Source: a virus (taxonomy: Duplodnaviria > Heunggongvirae > Uroviricota > Caudoviricetes). From it: DNA of 11,127 bases. Both the position numbers and the translations under genes were made by a program. The stretch lies in the IMG/VR virus record IMGVR_UViG_2713896903_000008; one strand, given 5' to 3'. Under the pieces are notes generated by a model, which was not told the DNA's origin, searched no databases, and worked only from the letters and a program-made list of their open reading frames with translations. This document shows, in pieces, positions 520-9,576 of this stretch. Numbering within the stretch: the stretch's first letter is position 1; each line of letters opens with the position of its first letter.

Positions 520-1302
520 TTACCCCCTGAAGCCTGGCGGGATCGCACTGTCCGGCAACGAGACGGTGTTAACCTGCCGAGGCAACGTCTCCGGTCGAAC
601 GCCTTTCGGCGCGAACAAGCCCTGGTATTCGTTGGCGATGCTGTGTCGAATCACCTGCTCAGGGGTAAAACCCTGCTGGCGGAATTTTTCCAGTTCCCGT
701 ATCGCCCCGTTAGCGCCCTGCTCCGTTCGAATCGGTTTTCGCAATGCCTGCCTGAACCGGACCCACTCATGCCAGAGTGTTTCCGGCAACCAATCGGGCA
801 ACTCAATAGCCTCCGGCTCGAATTTTTTAGATGCTCGTTTTTGGCGAGGGGGATTTAGGGGGAGATCAGTATTTATATCTTCCTCTTCCTCTGGTAACGC
901 TTTTTGATCCGTTTGTGTAACGCTGGCAGCGTTACCTTTTCGTTTCAGTTCGCGTATTTTTGTAACCCTCTCGTTTGTAATCGCCCGTTTTTTAGAGCTT
1001 TTTCCGTTATGACGTTCAAAGTTAGGTAGAGAAAGCCCACCGTTATTTTCGACCAGCCATCCAACCTGAATTAACGCATCAGCAAAACCAGCCATAAAAG
1101 TGATGCGATCTATTGCACTTTTTGTAACGCCGCGAGCGTTACACTCTGCGTTACCGTCTATCATTTGTTGATCCGCCCATGCCCAGAAGCGAATGACTTT
1201 CCCTAATGCGGCATCTGGATCAATATTCAGAATCTCAGCAAGCCTGAATATTTCCGGCTTATCCGGCGTAATAACCTCGAGCTTTATCCAGTTTGAAGCC
1301 AT
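520..1302 (-). CDS. ydaU: Putative phage replication-initiation protein (YdaU-like, lambda O position), 260 aa
   Basis: Complete 260-aa ORF between ydaT and the DnaC-like loader. ATG at 1302 preceded by GGTGA Shine-Dalgarno. It has an N-terminal globular part, a K/E-rich linker (KALPEEEEDINTD) and a C-terminal part. Assignment is by synteny and general resemblance, not a verified alignment. Confidence 0.7.
   Translation of the reverse strand: MASNWIKLEVITPDKPEIFRLAEILNIDPDAALGKVIRFWAWADQQMIDGNAECNARGVTKSAIDRITFMAGFADALIQVGWLVENNGGLSLPNFERHNGKSSKKRAITNERVTKIRELKRKGNAASVTQTDQKALPEEEEDINTDLPLNPPRQKRASKKFEPEAIELPDWLPETLWHEWVRFRQALRKPIRTEQGANGAIRELEKFRQQGFTPEQVIRHSIANEYQGLFAPKGVRPETLPRQVNTVSLPDSAIPPGFRG
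916..936. repeat. 21-bp dyad-symmetric element copy 1 (perfect core GTAACGCTG-G-CAGCGTTAC at 917-935), inside ydaU
   Basis: Read directly from the sequence; one of three copies of TGTAACGC-N5-GCGTTACA (see finding). Confidence 0.6.
1123..1143. repeat. 21-bp dyad-symmetric element copy 2 (TGTAACGC-cgcga-GCGTTACA), inside ydaU
   Basis: Read directly from the sequence; 8-bp perfect arms with 5-bp spacer. Confidence 0.6.
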
Positions 1303-1379: not shown

Positions 1380-1802
1380 TCAATGCACTACGACAGAATC
1401 GCCGGGCGACCCACCACCGCTGAAATGTGCTTTCCGGTAAACGGCCTGGACTGCATCATCATGCGCATCAATTGCCGTACTCAACGCTTCCTGCGCCGCC
1501 AGTAATGCACGGCGTTCCAGGGTATCGAAGATACAGAGTCGGTGACGCAGCTCGCGCGGAAGAATTGCCAGAACCGCAGGGATCAGTTTCTGAATTTTTT
1601 CCCTTTGCGCTTTCGTTTCACCTTTCAACCAACGGTGATAGATATTCTGCTGATTGTTCCAGTCCTTGCCAGGCACCAGGGGCAATTCGCCGCCCCCCTG
1701 GCGCAGATATTCTTCAGTAATTGCGTTAGCGACCCACGCCTGCCCTTTTTCAGATGCCAGGGCCAACAACACTGATTCGATATGCTCATGCCTGATTTTC
1801 AT
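1380..1802 (-). CDS. ydaT: Rac-prophage YdaT-family protein (toxic / CII-position protein), 140 aa
   Basis: 140-aa ORF starting MKIRHEHIESVLLALASEKGQAWVANAITEEYLRQGGGELP, recognised as YdaT. Its ATG overlaps the stop of the upstream Cro-like gene (ATGA overlap at 1799-1802), implying translational coupling. Confidence 0.8.
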   Translation of the reverse strand: MKIRHEHIESVLLALASEKGQAWVANAITEEYLRQGGGELPLVPGKDWNNQQNIYHRWLKGETKAQREKIQKLIPAVLAILPRELRHRLCIFDTLERRALLAAQEALSTAIDAHDDAVQAVYRKAHFSGGGSPGDSVVVH

Positions 1803-2044
1803 GAATCAACCGCTCCTATGCTGTTTTCGCTATGCTTACCGTCTGGGGGGAATACATCGTCAAGTCCACAATGAGCACCAAGCCGATTAAGGGTGGAAAC
1901 AATTTTTCTGCACTCTTCTAGCCCAGGAGTACGAAAATTTGCTTCGTAATTTGCCAGTCGGCTTTGTATCCACCCTAACTGAACAGCAAGTTGTCTTTGA
2001 GACAACCCAAGCTGTTTTCGATATGTTGAAATTTTGTTCATCAT
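1799..2044 (-). CDS. Cro-like HTH (XRE-family) regulator, 81 aa (YdaS position)
   Basis: Tandem ATG ATG at 2044/2041 preceded by AGGAGG (plus 'cctcct' 2047-2052). HTH segment LGLSQRQLAVQLGWIQSRLANYEA. Divergent from the repressor gene across a ~95-bp operator region. Start could be 2041. Confidence 0.8.
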   Translation of the reverse strand: MMNKISTYRKQLGLSQRQLAVQLGWIQSRLANYEANFRTPGLEECRKIVSTLNRLGAHCGLDDVFPPDGKHSENSIGAVDS

Positions 2045-2063
2045 TACCTCCTGTTTCTATTAT

Positions 2064-2125
2064 TCACATTTCGTGAGCGAGATCAACTGCAGATACGTGA
2101 GTACCGCCAATTTCACACATCGTGA
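2064..2125. promoter_or_regulatory. Divergent immunity switch: operators TCACA-ttt-CGTGA (2064-2076) and TCACA-cat-CGTGA (2113-2125), a degenerate half-site CGTGAG at 2096-2101 between them, with candidate promoters for both HTH genes
   Basis: Two 13-bp near-palindromes with identical half-sites, centres ~49 bp apart. Minus-strand -35 TTGATC (plus 2081-2086) and -10 AATAAT bracket operator 1. Plus-strand extended -10 TGaTAAAAT (2123-2131) overlaps operator 2. Confidence 0.6.
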
Positions 2126-2138
2126 TAAAATCGGAACT

Positions 2139-2528
2139 ATGAAAACGATTGCAGAACAAATAGGCGAGCGCCTAAAAGCCACTCGGCTAAATCGAGGATT
2201 AAGTATGGGAAACCTGGCAAAACTATGTGGTTGGTCAGGTTCTTCTCGTATTGCTAACTACGAAGCTGGCACCAGGAGTGTGGGGGCTGAGGATGCGATC
2301 ATCCTCGGCCAAGTACTAGGCATTTCCCCCGCAGAATTAATGTTCGGTGAACAGGAAAACACGTACTCATGGTTAAATGATAACCAGAAAAAAATGCTAG
2401 AGCTGTTTAATCAGCTCCCGGGATCAGAACAAGCACGCATGATTGATCTGTTCGAAATCCGTCTTCAAGAGCTTGATGAGTATGTGGAAAAATATCTAAG
2501 AAGCAGGCAACAGAAAAAATCCTCCTAA
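2139..2528 (+). CDS. cI-like HTH (XRE-family) prophage repressor, ~129 aa (RacR position); no S24 peptidase domain recognisable
   Basis: The track ORF starts at a TTG at 2034, but its first 35 codons overlap the Cro-like start and promoter and translate to low-complexity sequence. Start is taken at ATG 2139 (MKTIAEQIGERLKATRLNRGLSMGNLAKLCGWSGSSRIANYEAG). HTH followed by a ~60-aa helical C-terminal region. Followed by an intrinsic terminator. Confidence 0.75.
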   Translation: MKTIAEQIGERLKATRLNRGLSMGNLAKLCGWSGSSRIANYEAGTRSVGAEDAIILGQVLGISPAELMFGEQENTYSWLNDNQKKMLELFNQLPGSEQARMIDLFEIRLQELDEYVEKYLRSRQQKKSS

Positions 2529-2554
2529 ACCTTTAATCTCCCTCGATTCCAATC

Positions 2555-2587
2555 AAAAAGCTCTCGCTATTAGCGAGGGCTTTTTTT
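2555..2587. terminator. Rho-independent terminator after the repressor gene (9-bp stem GCTCTCGCT/AGCGAGGGC, 3-nt loop, T7 tail; A5 on the 5' side, possibly bidirectional)
   Basis: Stem 2560-2568 pairs with 2572-2580 (one G-U pair); TTTTTTT at 2581-2587; AAAAA at 2555-2559. Confidence 0.75.
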
Positions 2588-2640
2588 GTCCATCAAAAAT
2601 CCAAAAACAACATTGCTCACATATTGAGTTGACAAATCAC

Positions 2641-2653
2641 TCACGATATGTGA
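2641..2653. promoter_or_regulatory. Third copy of the immunity operator, inverted (TCACG-ata-TGTGA = reverse complement of TCACA-tat-CGTGA), just downstream of a consensus -35 TTGACA (2629-2634)
   Basis: Read directly from the sequence. Its position relative to TTGACA places the operator over the spacer/-10 of a plus-strand promoter aimed at ydaG-ydaF, i.e. a PL-like position. Confidence 0.5.
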
Positions 2654-2834
2654 GCATTTGCCATATCCAAACAACGCCCCACCAGAGAACGGCAGGACAA
2701 TACCTTGAGTTATCCAGCCACTGAACAGGGCTAAGTAGCCAGCCTGAGGCATACGAACATGACGGCAGTTGTTGATTGATACAAAGCGCAGTAGATAAAA
2801 CGTTCCGCCACCCGGCGTTAAGGGGAGAGATAAG

Positions 2835-2969
2835 ATGGTGCATTACGAAGTAGTTCAGTATTTGATGGATTGTTGCGGCATCACTTACAACCAGGCTGTG
2901 CAGGCTTTACGCAGCAACGACTGGGATCTCTGGCAGGCAGAAGCCTCTATCCGCAACAACAAGATGTGA
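2835..2969 (+). CDS. ydaG: Small protein YdaG-like, 44 aa (below ORF-track cutoff); predicted three-helix UBA-like fold
   Basis: ATG 2835 preceded by GGGGAGAG Shine-Dalgarno; translation MVHYEVVQYLMDCCGITYNQAVQALRSNDWDLWQAEASIRNNKM; stop TGA 2967-2969. Length and position match what I recall for Rac ydaG. Confidence 0.6.
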   Translation: MVHYEVVQYLMDCCGITYNQAVQALRSNDWDLWQAEASIRNNKM

Positions 2970-2979
2970 GGTGCGAAAA

Positions 2980-3135
2980 ATGCAAAAAATCGACCTCGGC
3001 AATAACGAATCCATTGTGTGCGGCGTGTTCCCCAACCAAGATGGAACGTTCACTGCTATGACGTATACCAAAAGCAAAACATTTAAAACAGAAACTGGTG
3101 CGCGCCGATGGTTGGAGAAGCACACAGTAAGCTAA
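2980..3135 (+). CDS. ydaF: Small basic protein YdaF-like, 51 aa (below ORF-track cutoff)
   Basis: ATG 2980 preceded by GAGGTG; translation MQKIDLGNNESIVCGVFPNQDGTFTAMTYTKSKTFKTETGARRWLEKHTVS; stop TAA 3133-3135. It lies 10 nt after the ydaG stop and overlaps the convergent sieB stop by 4 bp. Confidence 0.6.
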   Translation: MQKIDLGNNESIVCGVFPNQDGTFTAMTYTKSKTFKTETGARRWLEKHTVS

Positions 3136-3620: not shown

Positions 3621-3838
3621 ATCAATAACTCTCAACTGTAAGGGTATTGAAATGTTAACACAAGCTCTCGCTGTAGGGGTATAGCCGAGACCACCGAAGC
3701 CCGGAGGTGGTGAAATAAAACCGGGCACAACACGAAGGCGCATTTCCGATATCCATAAAGAGTCGGTCTTGTCTGTTAAATTTAAATGGTGGGAGTGCGC
3801 CTCCGGTTGTAAATAACGACATTGCTGTGTGTAGTCCT

Positions 3839-3886
3839 GGCGGCATCAGTTTTTTTCTTGAAGTTCGGCTGATGTCCGCCCTTTTT
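3839..3886 (+). terminator. Terminator-like GC-rich hairpin with T-run in the sieB-kilR intergenic region
   Basis: GGCGGCATCAG (3839-3849) pairs with CTGATG-T-CCGCC (3869-3880): 11 bp with one bulged T, 19-nt loop, followed by CTTTTT (3881-3886). Only the plus strand has the U-run. Confidence 0.35.
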
Positions 3887-4060
3887 AAAGTGAATTTTGT
3901 GATGCGGTGAATGCGGCTAAGCGCACGCGGAACAGTTAAAGCTAAAAACAGTGTTATGGGTGGATTCTCTGTATCCGGCGTTAATTGTTAACTGGTTAAC
4001 GTCACCTGGAGGCACCAGGCACCGCATCGACAAAATTCATTTGTAAAAATGGAGATAATT

Positions 4061-4282
4061 ATGATTACTCATCACTTCGGAACTGATGAAATACCACGTC
4101 AGTGTGTAACTCCTGGCGATTATGTTCTTCATGAAGGCCGGACATATATCGCCTCGGCAAACAATATAAAAAAGCGAAAACTTTATATTCGTAGCCTGAC
4201 CACAAAAACATGCATTTCTGACTGCATGGTTAAAGTCTTCCTCGGTAGTGATGGTTTACCTGTAAAAGCGGAGTCATGGTGA
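4061..4282 (+). CDS. kilR: KilR, Rac-prophage cell-division (FtsZ) inhibitor, 73 aa
   Basis: ATG 4061 with GGAG 5 nt upstream; translation [46 protein letters not shown], recognised as KilR. The track ORF start at 4049 lacks a Shine-Dalgarno. Confidence 0.85.
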
Positions 4283-4452
4283 TGGATAAGAAAATAAAAT
4301 GTGCTTACCACCTTTGCAAAAAAGACGTTGAAGAAAGCAAAACTATTGAAAGAATGCTTCATTTCATGCACGGAACTTTATCAAAAAACGAACCGAGAAA
4401 ATATTGCAGTGAAGCTTGTGCCGAAAAAGACCAGATGGCACACGAACTTTAA
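4282..4452 (+). CDS. ydaE: Small Cys4 (zinc-ribbon-like) protein YdaE-like, 56 aa (below ORF-track cutoff)
   Basis: ATG overlaps the kilR stop (ATGA at 4280-4284). Translation [56 protein letters not shown] with Cys at 7, 12, 42, 46. Stop TAA 4450-4452. Confidence 0.65.
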   Translation: MDKKIKCAYHLCKKDVEESKTIERMLHFMHGTLSKNEPRKYCSEACAEKDQMAHEL

Positions 4453-4526: not shown

Positions 4527-4802
4527 ATGATTACCAATTATGAATCCACTGTTGTAACTACTGATGACATTGTTCACGAGGTCAATCTGGACGGAAAGCG
4601 TATTGGCTACGTGATTAAAACAGAAAATAAAGAAACCCCATTCACTGTGGTTGATATCGACGGTCCATCAGGCAACGTTAAAACACTTCACGAAGGCGTC
4701 AAAAAAATGTGCCTGGTGCACATTGGAAATAATCTGCCAGCAGAAAAAAAAGCTGAGTTTCTGGCAACTCTGATTGCAATGAAATTAAAAGGTGAAATTT
4801 GA
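4527..4802 (+). CDS. racC: RacC, 91 aa, function unknown
   Basis: ATG 4527 preceded by AAGGAG (4514-4519); translation MITNYESTVVTTDDIVHEVNLDGKRIGYVIKTENKETPFTVVDIDGPSGNVKTLHEGVKKM, recognised as RacC. The upstream in-frame ATG at 4479 has no Shine-Dalgarno. Confidence 0.8.
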   Translation: MITNYESTVVTTDDIVHEVNLDGKRIGYVIKTENKETPFTVVDIDGPSGNVKTLHEGVKKMCLVHIGNNLPAEKKAEFLATLIAMKLKGEI

Positions 4803-9136: not shown

Positions 9137-9200
9137 TATTTACCATGGCGGTGTAGCCTCGCCGCCATCGCAAAATTATATATTTATGAGAGAAAAGACA

Positions 9201-9395
9201 ATGCGATATGAAAAAGTTAAGCCATGTCCGTTTTGTGGTTGTCCATCTGTAACAGTGAAAGCCATTTCAGGGTGTTACCGGGCAAAATGCAACGGCTGCG
9301 AATCCCGAACTGGCTATGGTGGAAGTGAGAAAGAAGCCCTCGAAAGATGGAATAAACGAACCGCTGAAAATATTAATGGAGGCATCTATGTATAA
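9201..9395 (+). CDS. ralR: RalR, type I toxin (non-specific DNase / restriction alleviation), 64 aa
   Basis: Translation MRYEKVKPCPFCGCPSVTVKAISGCYRAKCNGCESRTGYGGSEKEALERWNKRT, recognised as RalR; Cys-rich. The track ORF start at 9186 would add 5 codons without a Shine-Dalgarno. Confidence 0.8.
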   Translation: MRYEKVKPCPFCGCPSVTVKAISGCYRAKCNGCESRTGYGGSEKEALERWNKRTAENINGGIYV

Positions 9396-9576
9396 AATTA
9401 CCGCCACAATTGAAAAGGAAGGAGGTACTCCTACTAACTGGACAAGATATTCAAAATCTAAACTAACGAAATCAGAATGCGAAAAAATGCTCTCAGGGAA
9501 AAAAGAAGCAGGCGTTTCCAGAGAGCAAAATGTAAAACTGATGAATTTTAATTGCGAGAAACTTCAGTCCTGGTAA
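9388..9576 (+). CDS. ydaC: YdaC-like small protein, 62 aa, function unknown
   Basis: ATG 9388 preceded by GGAGG (9378-9382); translation MYKITATIEKEGGTPTNWTRYSKSKLTKSECEKMLSGKKEAG. Overlaps the ralR 3' end by 8 nt in another frame. Confidence 0.65.
   Translation: MYKITATIEKEGGTPTNWTRYSKSKLTKSECEKMLSGKKEAGVSREQNVKLMNFNCEKLQSW

What the first reader, a model, noticed from the sequence alone, without database searches (positions are those of the whole stretch)
2064..2653. Operator family TCACA-N3-CGTGA: tripartite OR-like array at the switch plus an inverted copy in a PL-like position
O1 (2064-2076, tTCACAtttCGTGAg) and O2 (2113-2125) flank a degenerate half-site (CGTGAG at 2096-2101) with centre-to-centre spacing of about 24-25 bp, reminiscent of lambda OR1-OR2-OR3 geometry. 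A third full site (2641-2653) is the exact family member in inverted orientation (reverse complement cTCACAtatCGTGAg). It sits 60 bp past the repressor terminator, right after a consensus TTGACA. This suggests the repressor also controls a rightward PL-like promoter feeding ydaG-ydaF, about 550 bp from OR, which would allow OR-OL-type looping. I found no further copies elsewhere in the window by eye.
Basis: seen in the sequence. Interest (0 to 1): 0.5.

Follow-up and report, generated by a model that had tools for sequence, protein, structure and literature searches.

The report
Prophage repressor operators at both early promoters
The three palindromes are real and are almost certainly the binding sites through which a Rac-like prophage's repressor shuts off its two early promoters, which is the standard lambda-type design with a new DNA specificity and so is ordinary.

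Summary
Observation confirmed. TCAC-N5-GTGA occurs exactly three times in the 11-kb window (2064-2076, 2113-2125, 2641-2653; 0.17 expected by chance). All three flank a 129-aa repressor gene (2139-2528) of a Rac-like prophage.

O1 fills the spacer of the leftward ydaS (Cro-like) promoter. O2 abuts the extended -10 of the repressor's own promoter. O3 fills the spacer of a rightward TTGACA-N17-(TG)GAGCAT promoter that feeds ydaG-ydaF.

Each early promoter also carries a conserved half-site 24 bp from its full site, abutting the -35 (2088-2100 and 2617-2629).

In 67 distinct related viral loci (repressor 54-100% identical), the upstream pair and the downstream site or sites recur in all but one, which is a deletion. 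In the TCAC-type relatives the half-sites are fixed while the central 5 bp drift.

Other immunity types place their own motif in the same two positions: K-12 RacR, Qin DicA and an APEC O1 allele. Qin dicBp and CP-933P PL933P are experimentally proven equivalents.

The repressor is a DicA-family protein. This is a new member of a known kind. Repressor binding and OR-OL looping remain untested.

Separately, the transcript leader at 2670-2773 looks like an undescribed structured RNA.

The parts
1799..2044 (-). ydaS-type Cro-like HTH gene (81 aa), first gene of the leftward early operon (ydaS-ydaT-ydaU...)
   Evidence: ORF list. Pfam HTH_3, E = 6.9e-10. Its HTH is homologous to the repressor's HTH: 42% over 43 aa, E = 1e-6.
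2059..2086 (-). PR-like promoter for ydaS: -35 TTGATC (2086-2081), 16-nt spacer, -10 AATAAT (2064-2059)
   Evidence: This is the only sigma-70 consensus match in 1950-2900. Coordinates checked.
2064..2076 (.). O1 (OR1-like), TCACATTTCGTGA. It fills the PR-like spacer and touches the -10.
   Evidence: A site sits at -75 from the repressor ATG in the relatives, with half-sites invariant in the TCAC-type groups.
2088..2100 (.). Middle half-operator (OR2-like), TGCAGATACGTGA. Only the half distal from O1 (GTGA) matches. It abuts the PR-like -35, with its centre 24 bp from O1 and 25 bp from O2.
   Evidence: ACGTGA is conserved at this position in relatives whose repressors are 57-98% identical.
2113..2125 (.). 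O2 (OR3-like), TCACACATCGTGA, directly upstream of and overlapping the extended -10 of the repressor promoter
   Evidence: Found at -25/-26 from the ATG in all relatives.
2123..2131 (+). Candidate repressor promoter (PRM-like): TG (2123-2124) plus -10 TAAAAT (2126-2131). The ATG is 8 nt downstream, so the mRNA is probably leaderless or nearly so.
   Evidence: Read directly from the sequence. The same layout, operator then -10 then ATG, is seen in relatives. paaR2 and lambda cI are leaderless (PMC8630535). Inferred, no TSS data.
2139..2528 (+). Repressor, 129 aa: N-terminal HTH plus a short helical C-terminal domain. DicA family, no S24 peptidase domain.
   Evidence: Pfam HTH_31/HTH_3. 29% identity to Qin DicA over the full length, E = 6e-15. 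Family alignment.
2555..2587 (.). Bidirectional intrinsic terminator (A-tract, 14-bp stem, T-tract) that ends the repressor transcript
   Evidence: Fold of -20.3 kcal/mol, z = -6.4. Coordinates. Listed on the minus strand by the scan.
2617..2629 (.). OL2-like half-operator TCACATATTGAGT. The TCAC half is conserved. Its last base is the first T of the -35, and its centre is 24 bp from O3.
   Evidence: The TCACA half is conserved in relatives, and a full operator sits in this register in other immunity types.
2629..2657 (+). PL-like promoter: -35 TTGACA (2629-2634), 17-nt spacer, TG (2649-2650), -10 GAGCAT (2652-2657)
   Evidence: TTGACA is invariant across three immunity types in the alignment. 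The -10 keeps A at position 2 and T at position 6 in relatives (GAGCAT, GAAACT, GAAGCT). The consensus scan did not flag it because only 3 of 6 bases in the -10 match.
2641..2653 (.). O3 (OL1-like), TCACGATATGTGA. It lies in the spacer of the PL-like promoter, and its GTGA half supplies the TG and the first two bases of the -10.
   Evidence: Present 85-142 bp after the repressor stop, or further away behind inserted genes, in 66 of 67 distinct related loci.
2670..2773 (+). Conserved structured leader of the PL-like transcript: long-range helix P1, hairpin P2 with a conserved 15-nt loop CAAUACCnnGAGUUA, and two small hairpins
   Evidence: RNAalifold. Covariance model R1 gives one hit per locus. 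All 7 pairs of P2 show compensatory changes.
2835..3135 (+). ydaG (2835-2969) and ydaF/DUF1391 (2980-3135), the first genes fed by the PL-like promoter
   Evidence: ORFs. Pfam DUF1391, E = 1e-28.

Best explanation
The three palindromes are the operators of the immunity switch of a Rac-like lambdoid prophage.

The 129-aa DicA-family repressor (2139-2528) is proposed to bind as a dimer to TCAC-N5-GTGA.
- At O1 it sits in the spacer of the leftward ydaS promoter and blocks RNA polymerase. This silences ydaS-ydaT and the replication genes.
- At O3 it sits in the spacer and -10 of a rightward promoter 100 bp past its own stop codon. This silences the early-left operon (ydaG, ydaF, kil, recE, recT, ralR, xis, int).
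- At O2, which abuts the -10 of its own, probably leaderless, promoter, it limits its own synthesis.

At each early promoter a conserved half-site 24 bp away, abutting the -35, probably takes a second dimer through cooperative contacts.

The Cro-like YdaS has a homologous helix-turn-helix and very likely uses the same sites in the opposite sense.

What is shown: the sites, their statistics, their promoter geometry and their conservation. What is inferred: binding, cooperativity, the order of occupancy and any OR-OL loop.
For: - Statistics. There are 3 exact sites against 0.17 expected, all in the two non-coding regions flanking the repressor. In a complete 47.5-kb phage with the identical repressor there are only 4 sites, and 3 of them are these.
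- Geometry. O1 lies between TTGATC and AATAAT on the minus strand. O3 lies between TTGACA and TG-GAGCAT on the plus strand. Both have the same orientation relative to transcription.
- Conservation. In 67 distinct viral loci the upstream pair and the downstream site or sites recur in all but one. In the TCAC-type relatives the half-sites are fixed and the central 5 bp vary. Across five loci of the family, 19 of 27 CAC-N5-GTG cores fall in the OR and PL intervals, which cover 2-4% of the DNA.
- Module boundaries. Against the APEC O1 immunity type, identity falls to 50-80% exactly from about 2045 to about 2661 and is 90-100% outside. So both operator sets travel with the repressor gene.
- Independent immunity types keep the design. 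K-12 RacR's footprinted motif TAGGC-N3-GCCTA (PMC9638921) also flanks a TTGACA downstream of racR. Qin DicA's motif flanks TTGACC at dicBp.
- Experiments on equivalents. Deleting dicA derepresses dicBp 22-fold. PL933P is repressed about 100-fold by PaaR2 and by YdaS. RacR depletion induces ydaG through intR.
- Protein. It is a DicA homologue, and its HTH is homologous to that of YdaS.
Against: - There are no binding, footprint, TSS or reporter data for this repressor or these sites.
- The PL-like -10 (GAGCAT) matches consensus at only 3 of 6 positions, and the promoter scan did not report it.
- Homologues with the identical or 98%-identical repressor are too similar for the lack of substitutions in the sites to be significant on its own. 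About 5 variable positions lie in the 94-bp OR region and none in the 26 bp of O1 plus O2, which gives p of about 0.2 (my count).
- The two half-sites are degenerate and could be tolerated relics.
- An identical YdaS is paired with a repressor only 59-60% identical. So part of the conservation could reflect YdaS rather than the repressor.
Confidence: 0.85

Rival explanations
1. The palindromes are mainly YdaS (Cro-like) sites. The repressor recognises something else or only a subset of them, for example only O1 and O3, with O2 being a YdaS-preferred site.
For: - The window's YdaS is 100% identical to that of the APEC O1 immunity type, whose repressor is only 59-60% identical.
- The APEC O1 type keeps a TCAC-type site at the O2 position while its other sites are ACAC-type.
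- In CP-933P, YdaS binds the PRM side first.
Against: - The outer base of the half-site (TCAC against ACAC) changes with the repressor allele, not with YdaS.
- Both operator sets lie inside the cassette that is exchanged together with the repressor gene, while ydaS lies outside it.
- The repressor and YdaS have homologous HTHs, so shared sites are expected, as in lambda, 434 and CP-933P.
Confidence: 0.06
2. O3 is a real repressor site but not a promoter operator. It serves only as a distal anchor for DNA looping to OR, or as a roadblock to read-through from the repressor gene, and ydaG-ydaF are transcribed from elsewhere.
For: - The -10 is weak.
- O3 lies about 530-580 bp from OR, a distance over which looping is feasible.
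Against: - A consensus TTGACA lies exactly 6 bp upstream and is invariant across immunity types.
- A TG-extended -10 with conserved A2 and T6 is kept in relatives.
- Sequence homology among immunity types resumes just after the -10, as expected for a transcript start.
- A strong terminator already stops read-through.
- The positional equivalents dicBp and PL933P are active promoters.
- No other promoter-like site was found between 2590 and 2834.
Confidence: 0.05
3. The third copy is a chance palindrome or a recombination relic without function.
For: Short palindromes are common, and only 8 bases are specified.
Against: - 0 of 200 shuffles reach three copies.
- The site is kept at the same place in 66 of 67 distinct loci, with repressors down to about 54-60% identity, while the surrounding sequence has diverged beyond alignment.
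Confidence: 0.01

Closest known systems
Qin cryptic prophage of E. coli K-12: DicA repressor, DicC, and the dicBp promoter
   Same: - The repressor is homologous over its full length: 29% identity, E = 6e-15, with a shared LELFNxLPxSEQ C-terminal motif.
- It is a short repressor without a cleavage domain.
- Operators lie both in the divergent intergenic region and around a promoter just downstream of the repressor gene, with one operator upstream of the -35 and one in the spacer (text).
- The first downstream gene is a DUF1391 protein (ydfA or ydaF). The 3' part of the leader (GTTCCGC...GCGTTAAGGGGA) is homologous.
- dicBp is repressed by DicA in experiments.
   Different: - Operator sequence: Qin uses TTAGTCATGGCTAA-type sites, while this one uses TCAC-N5-GTGA.
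- The Cro-like partner is unrelated. DicC has no detectable similarity to the window's YdaS.
- Qin lacks the 104-nt structured leader domain.
CP-933P prophage of E. coli O157:H7: PaaR2, YdaS, YdaT with PR933P, PRM933P and PL933P (Jurenas et al. 2021, PMC8630535)
   Same: - Same gene order: ydaT, ydaS, repressor, then a PL-like promoter.
- Multiple operators lie between divergent promoters, and the repressor mRNA is leaderless.
- A second promoter downstream of the repressor operon carries the same repeats and is repressed by both the repressor and YdaS.
   Different: - The operator consensus is different (18-bp palindromes, GTTTAGTAA half).
- CP-933P has a toxin-antitoxin pair between the repressor and PL.
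- PaaR2 octamerises, whereas the oligomeric state here is unknown.
- Homology between PaaR2 and this repressor was not tested because I did not have the PaaR2 sequence.
Phage lambda CI/Cro with OR1-3 and OL1-3
   Same: - Divergent PR and PRM with three roughly 24-bp-spaced sites.
- A second operator set at PL on the far side of the repressor gene.
- PL is transcribed in the same direction as the repressor gene.
- The immunity region is an exchangeable cassette bounded by the two operator regions.
   Different: - The repressor has no S24 autocleavage domain.
- Sites are 13-bp (4-5-4) palindromes, not 17-bp.
- One site of each early promoter is only a half-site.
- OL has two sites, not three.
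- OR and OL are about 0.55 kb apart rather than 2.4 kb.
- The cro-like gene lies outside the exchanged cassette.
Rac prophage of E. coli K-12: RacR, YdaS, YdaT
   Same: - Same prophage scaffold. ydaT, ydaG, ydaF and sieB are 80-100% identical in DNA.
- RacR's footprinted motif also recurs as operator, TTGACA, operator, TATAGT downstream of racR.
- RacR depletion induces ydaG through intR.
   Different: - RacR is unrelated to the window's repressor, with no BLASTP alignment.
- K-12 YdaS is only 19% identical.
- The operator is TAGGC-N3-GCCTA.
CI of phage mEpX1 and VT1-Sakai (Stx1 phage)
   Same: - The HTH domain is 58% identical over residues 1-74.
- The operators are [A/T]CAC-N5-GTG[A/T], with two or more at OR and three at OL around TTGACC.
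   Different: mEpX1 CI carries a long LexA-like C-terminal domain (215 aa in total). mEpX1 also has an N and nut antitermination system.

Membership tests
Lambdoid immunity switch (OR/OL operator system) | Repressor and Cro-like genes are transcribed divergently from an intergenic region that holds several copies of one operator motif | tested here: met
   The genes are at 1799-2044 (-) and 2139-2528 (+). Two full sites and one half-site lie in the 94-bp gap.
Lambdoid immunity switch (OR/OL operator system) | The same motif overlaps a second early promoter on the other side of the repressor gene | tested here: met
   O3 lies inside TTGACA-N17-GAGCAT. It is conserved in 66 of 67 distinct related loci.
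Lambdoid immunity switch (OR/OL operator system) | The repressor physically binds the operators and represses both promoters | not testable with these tools
   This needs EMSA, footprinting or reporters. Only equivalents have been tested.
Lambda CI / LexA-like repressors | C-terminal S24 peptidase domain with RecA-stimulated self-cleavage | tested here: not met
   Pfam finds only HTH domains. The C-terminal part is about 55 aa and aligns with DicA, not with the S24 part of mEpX1 CI.
Lambda CI | Octamer-mediated OR-OL looping | not testable with these tools
   The single-sequence AlphaFold model was unusable, with pLDDT 45.7. The OR-OL distance varies from 516 to 566 bp among homologues without conserved phase.
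DicA-type short repressors (Qin) | Full-length homology to DicA (HTH plus the short C-terminal domain) | tested here: met
   BLASTP gives 29% identity over 132 columns, E = 6e-15.
DicA-type short repressors (Qin) | A repressed promoter directly downstream of the repressor gene, with operators flanking the -35 | tested here: met
   Same layout in Qin and in the window. This holds at the sequence level only for the window.
DicA-type short repressors (Qin) | DicC as the Cro-like partner, and the DicA operator sequence | tested here: not met
   No similarity between YdaS and DicC. The operator motif is different.
DicA-type short repressors (Qin) | Induction through an antirepressor (Rem) rather than cleavage | not tested
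   No antirepressor gene lies in the window. A complete phage with the identical repressor has a gene annotated as anti-repressor.
K-12 Rac RacR/YdaS module | RacR homologue, and the RacR operator TAGGC-N3-GCCTA | tested here: not met
   No alignment to RacR. The window's motif is different.
K-12 Rac RacR/YdaS module | Flanking Rac genes (ydaT, ydaG, ydaF, sieB, recET, ralR/RalA, intR) | tested here: met

The most novel reading that the evidence does not exclude
The operator-controlled 'PL' unit may include more than a promoter. Its transcript begins with a conserved, covarying RNA domain of about 104 nt (2670-2773). This domain has a long-range helix, a hairpin with an invariant 15-nt loop and two small hairpins, and it has no Rfam match.

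The most novel reading not excluded is that this is a cis-acting element that lets the early-left transcript read through terminators, so that it replaces the N/nut system in Rac-type prophages in the way HK022 put RNA does.

A related, milder novelty is that one YdaS (Cro-like) protein serves two repressors only 59-60% identical. In that case immunity would be set by the repressor and operator cassette alone.
Probability: 0.15. Interest if true: 0.6.

Novelty: new member of a known kind. Interest (0 to 1): 0.25.

Why it matters
It defines the operator motif and the likely regulon of one immunity type of Rac-like prophages. That regulon consists of the two early promoters only. This immunity type is found in poultry, swine and human E. 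coli isolates and in a complete phage genome.

The promoters it silences drive the cell-division inhibitor kil, the recET recombination genes, the ralR toxin, and excision.

The result helps annotation and predicts which co-resident prophages are homo-immune. It does not change the understanding of how such switches work.

Tried and rejected
- A scan of one genome per species for the repressor gave only a 26%-identical hit in an unrelated metagenome-assembled genome. It was not useful.
- E. coli complete genomes hold only 10 copies of the full cassette, all at least 97.7% identical. They are too similar to test conservation, so I used viral contigs instead.
- The PDB sequence search found only generic HTH matches.
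- Single-sequence AlphaFold gave pLDDT 45.7, which is unusable, so no fold search was run.
- Looping was probed through helical phasing of the O2-O3 distance among homologues (516-566 bp). No conserved phase appeared, which is uninformative at this length.
- Leader RNA: there was no Rfam match at the gathering threshold or at E up to 5.
- Leader RNA: it has no sequence similarity to the HK022 PL/put region.
- Leader RNA: there is no second copy in a complete phage.
- Leader RNA: the single-sequence fold is no more stable than shuffles, z = +0.81. Support for the structure therefore rests on covariation only.
- A literature search for H-19B/Stx1 CI operators gave nothing directly usable.
Full report
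**What the window is.** The ORF list and Pfam hits show the early region of a Rac-like lambdoid prophage. The genes, in order:
- ydaU-like, 520-1302 (-)
- ydaT, 1380-1802 (-)
- an 81-aa Cro-like HTH gene of the ydaS type, 1799-2044 (-)
- a 129-aa HTH repressor, 2139-2528 (+)
- ydaG, 2835-2969 (+)
- ydaF/DUF1391, 2980-3135 (+)
- sieB (-), recE, recT, ralR with its RalA antitoxin RNA, and intR

No complete E. coli genome in RefSeq matches the whole window. The best covers 86% at 92.9% identity. Only 10 of 5426 genomes carry the repressor cassette, all at least 97.7% identical. A complete 47.5-kb phage record (PP818812, labelled an Actinobacillus phage) encodes the identical repressor.

**Check of the observation.** TCAC-N5-GTGA occurs at 2064-2076, 2113-2125 and 2641-2653 and nowhere else. 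That is 3 matches against 0.17 expected, and none of 200 shuffles reaches 3. One mismatch adds a single site at 4642, which is the chance level. In the complete phage with the same repressor there are 4 matches in 47.5 kb. Three are these sites and one lies inside a tail-fibre gene, against 0.63 expected.

Two corrections are needed. First, the consensus is TCAC-N5-GTGA, because positions 5 and 9 vary in homologues.

**Anatomy.** On the minus strand the only consensus promoter in 1950-2900 is TTGATC (2086-2081), a 16-nt spacer and AATAAT (2064-2059). O1 fills its spacer. On the plus strand, TTGACA (2629-2634) is followed after 17 nt by GAGCAT (2652-2657), preceded by TG (2649-2650). O3 fills that spacer, and its GTGA half supplies the TG and the first two bases of the -10.

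Read in the direction of transcription, both promoters have the same plan:
- TCAC
- 8-10 nt
- the -35
- 4-6 nt
- TCACGAWATGTGA
- the -10

The upstream TCAC lies exactly 24 bp from the start of the full site in both cases: 2100 to 2076 on the minus strand, and 2617 to 2641 on the plus strand. This explains why O3 is 'inverted'. The two promoters diverge.

O2 ends where an extended -10 begins (TG 2123-2124, TAAAAT 2126-2131), and the repressor ATG follows 8 nt later. The repressor mRNA is therefore probably leaderless, as reported for lambda cI and paaR2. This point is inferred.

A strong bidirectional terminator (2555-2587, z = -6.4) separates the repressor gene from the PL-like promoter.

**Conservation in relatives.** A scan of viral contigs returned 80 loci, which reduce to 67 distinct arrangements, with repressors 54-100% identical.
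- In the groups with 100%, 98%, 84% and 61-66% identity, exact TCAC-N5-GTGA sites lie 73-75 and 25-26 bp before the ATG and 97-142 bp after the stop.
- In the pAEv1818-like group (57-60%) the sites are [A/C/T]CAC-N5-GTG[A/G/T]. In most of these loci extra genes lie between the repressor and a pair of downstream sites 25 bp apart.
- The only locus without a downstream site (L020) has a deletion that removes the promoter and most of the leader.
- In the TCAC-type groups the half-sites never change while the central 5 bp do. O1 has eight variants, O2 four and O3 six.
- The half-sites ACGTGA in OR and TCACA before the -35 of PL are kept at the same positions.
- In five loci of the wider family, 19 of 27 CAC-N5-GTG cores lie in the OR and PL intervals, which make up 2-4% of the DNA.

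The homologues with the identical or 98%-identical repressor are too similar to be informative on their own. By my count variable positions lie in OR and none in O1 or O2, which gives p of about 0.2.

**The sites belong to an exchangeable immunity cassette.** Against APEC O1, which has a 139-aa repressor 59% identical, DNA identity is 90-100% up to about 2044 and again from about 2662. It is 50-80% in between. The three-type alignment shows an invariant TTGACA, type-specific operators on either side of it, and homology resuming just after the -10. The cassette therefore runs from the OR operators to the PL operators, as in lambda immunity regions. Unusually, the Cro-like gene lies outside it. 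The window's YdaS is 100% identical to the APEC O1 YdaS.

**Independent immunity types use the same design.**
- In K-12 Rac the unrelated RacR has a footprinted motif TAGGC-N3-GCCTA in the racR-ydaS region (PMC9638921). The same motif flanks a TTGACA downstream of racR, as TAGGCATAGCCTA-TTGACA-N8-TAGGCATTACCTA-TAGT.
- RacR depletion or interference raises ydaG, ydaF, kilR, recET and intR 40- to more than 100-fold.
- In Qin, DicA-type sites flank TTGACC at dicBp, and deleting dicA raises dicBp 22-fold.
- In CP-933P, PL933P carries OL1-3 and is repressed about 100-fold by PaaR2 and by YdaS.

**The proteins.** The repressor has an HTH_3/HTH_31 domain and no S24 peptidase domain. It aligns with DicA over its full length (29% identity, E = 6e-15), including the LELFNxLPxSEQ motif of the C-terminal part. 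Its HTH is 58% identical to that of mEpX1/VT1-Sakai CI, whose OR and OL regions carry [A/T]CAC-N5-GTG[A/T] sites. It is also homologous to the HTH of its own YdaS (42% over 43 aa). Shared operators for repressor and Cro-like protein are therefore expected.

**Most likely mechanism** (confidence about 0.85). Repressor dimers occupy O1 and O3 and occlude RNA polymerase at the two early promoters. The half-sites 24 bp away are filled cooperatively. O2 gives negative autoregulation and is the likely first target of YdaS. The middle half-site is centred about 45 bp upstream of the presumed repressor mRNA start, which is the position lambda OR2 has relative to PRM, so activation from there is possible. 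All of these steps are inferred from geometry and from the tested equivalents.

Looping between OR and OL, about 530-580 bp apart, is possible but has no support here. The distance varies from 516 to 566 bp among homologues without a conserved phase, and the structure prediction was unusable.

Because there is no cleavage domain, induction is probably by an antirepressor, as with DicA and Rem. The complete phage with this repressor has a gene annotated as anti-repressor.

**Rivals.** Three alternatives were considered.
- YdaS-only sites. This is unlikely because the outer base of the half-site and both operator sets change with the repressor allele, not with YdaS.
- A looping anchor or roadblock without a promoter. 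This is unlikely given the invariant -35, the conserved extended -10, the terminator already present and the proven promoters at the same position in Qin and CP-933P.
- Chance. This is excluded.

**Novelty.** This is the standard lambdoid OR/OL arrangement in its DicA/Rac/CP-933P form, with a repressor specificity that I did not find described in the held literature. It is a new member of a known kind, and a specialist would not be surprised.

**Side finding: the leader.** The 5' leader of the PL-like transcript is conserved across immunity types. RNAalifold and a covariance model support a 104-nt domain at 2670-2773. It has four parts:
- helix P1: 2670-2678 paired with 2764-2773
- hairpin P2: 2692-2720, with the invariant loop CAAUACCnnGAGUUA
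- two small hairpins

All 7 pairs of P2 show compensatory changes. Overall, 94.6% of cells are paired, against 15-58% when the partners are slid by 1-3 columns. G-U pairs fit the plus strand.

There is one copy per locus and per complete phage, no Rfam match and no similarity to the HK022 put region. The single-sequence fold is no more stable than shuffles. Its function is unknown. A put-like antiterminator is one possibility.

Noticed in passing
window 2670-2773 (+), with a further hairpin at 2806-2817: The leader of the PL-like transcript is a conserved RNA domain with covariation. Helix P1 pairs 2670-2678 with 2764-2773. Hairpin P2 has an invariant 15-nt loop CAAUACCnnGAGUUA, and all 7 of its pairs show compensatory changes. 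The domain has no Rfam match, no similarity to HK022 put and a single copy per phage. The single-sequence fold is no more stable than shuffles. The 3' hairpin CGCC-ACCC-GGCG, just before the ribosome-binding site, also covaries and is shared with the Qin dicBp leader.
   Followed up: partly
window 2045-2661 compared with L002 (APEC O1) 3744-4391: The exchangeable immunity cassette holds the OR operators, the repressor, the terminator and the PL operators, but not the Cro-like gene. An identical YdaS is paired with two repressors only 59-60% identical, whose operators differ in the outer base (TCAC against ACAC). In all other groups, repressor identity and Cro identity fall together.
   Followed up: partly
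L010 2131-2168 (-), which is NC_000913.3 1419630-1419667: In K-12 Rac the footprinted RacR motif recurs as TAGGCATAGCCTA-TTGACA-N8-TAGGCATTACCTA-TAGT about 100 bp downstream of racR, upstream of ydaG. The papers I read map RacR operators only in the racR-ydaS region and state that the RacR regulon is not yet characterised in detail.
   Followed up: partly
window 1792-1809: TTGATTCATGAAAATCAG on the minus strand overlaps the ydaT start codon. It matches the published YdaT box TTGATT-N6-AATCAA with one mismatch.
   Followed up: no
window 2123-2141: The repressor ATG lies 8 nt after a TG-TAAAAT extended -10 and has no convincing ribosome-binding site. The repressor mRNA is therefore probably leaderless, as reported for lambda cI and paaR2.
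   Followed up: no
L095 (PP818812.1), whole record; anti-repressor gene at 38401-38889 (-): A record labelled as an Actinobacillus pleuropneumoniae phage is, across the early region compared here, mostly 90-100% identical to this E. coli Rac-like region, and its repressor is 100% identical. The host label therefore looks doubtful. It also carries a gene annotated as anti-repressor, which fits induction without repressor cleavage.
   Followed up: no
window 9394-9572 (-): There is a full-length Rfam match to RalA, the antitoxin RNA of the RalR type I toxin-antitoxin pair (199 bits, gathering score 170), next to the ralR-like ORF at 9186-9395.
   Followed up: no
L007 (phage mEpX1) 2501-3148 compared with window 2139-2528: The same HTH domain (58% identical) is joined either to a long LexA-like C-terminal domain (mEpX1/VT1-Sakai CI, 215 aa) or to the short DicA-like domain found here. 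This looks like a domain swap between cleavage-inducible and non-cleavable repressors that use similar operators.
   Followed up: no
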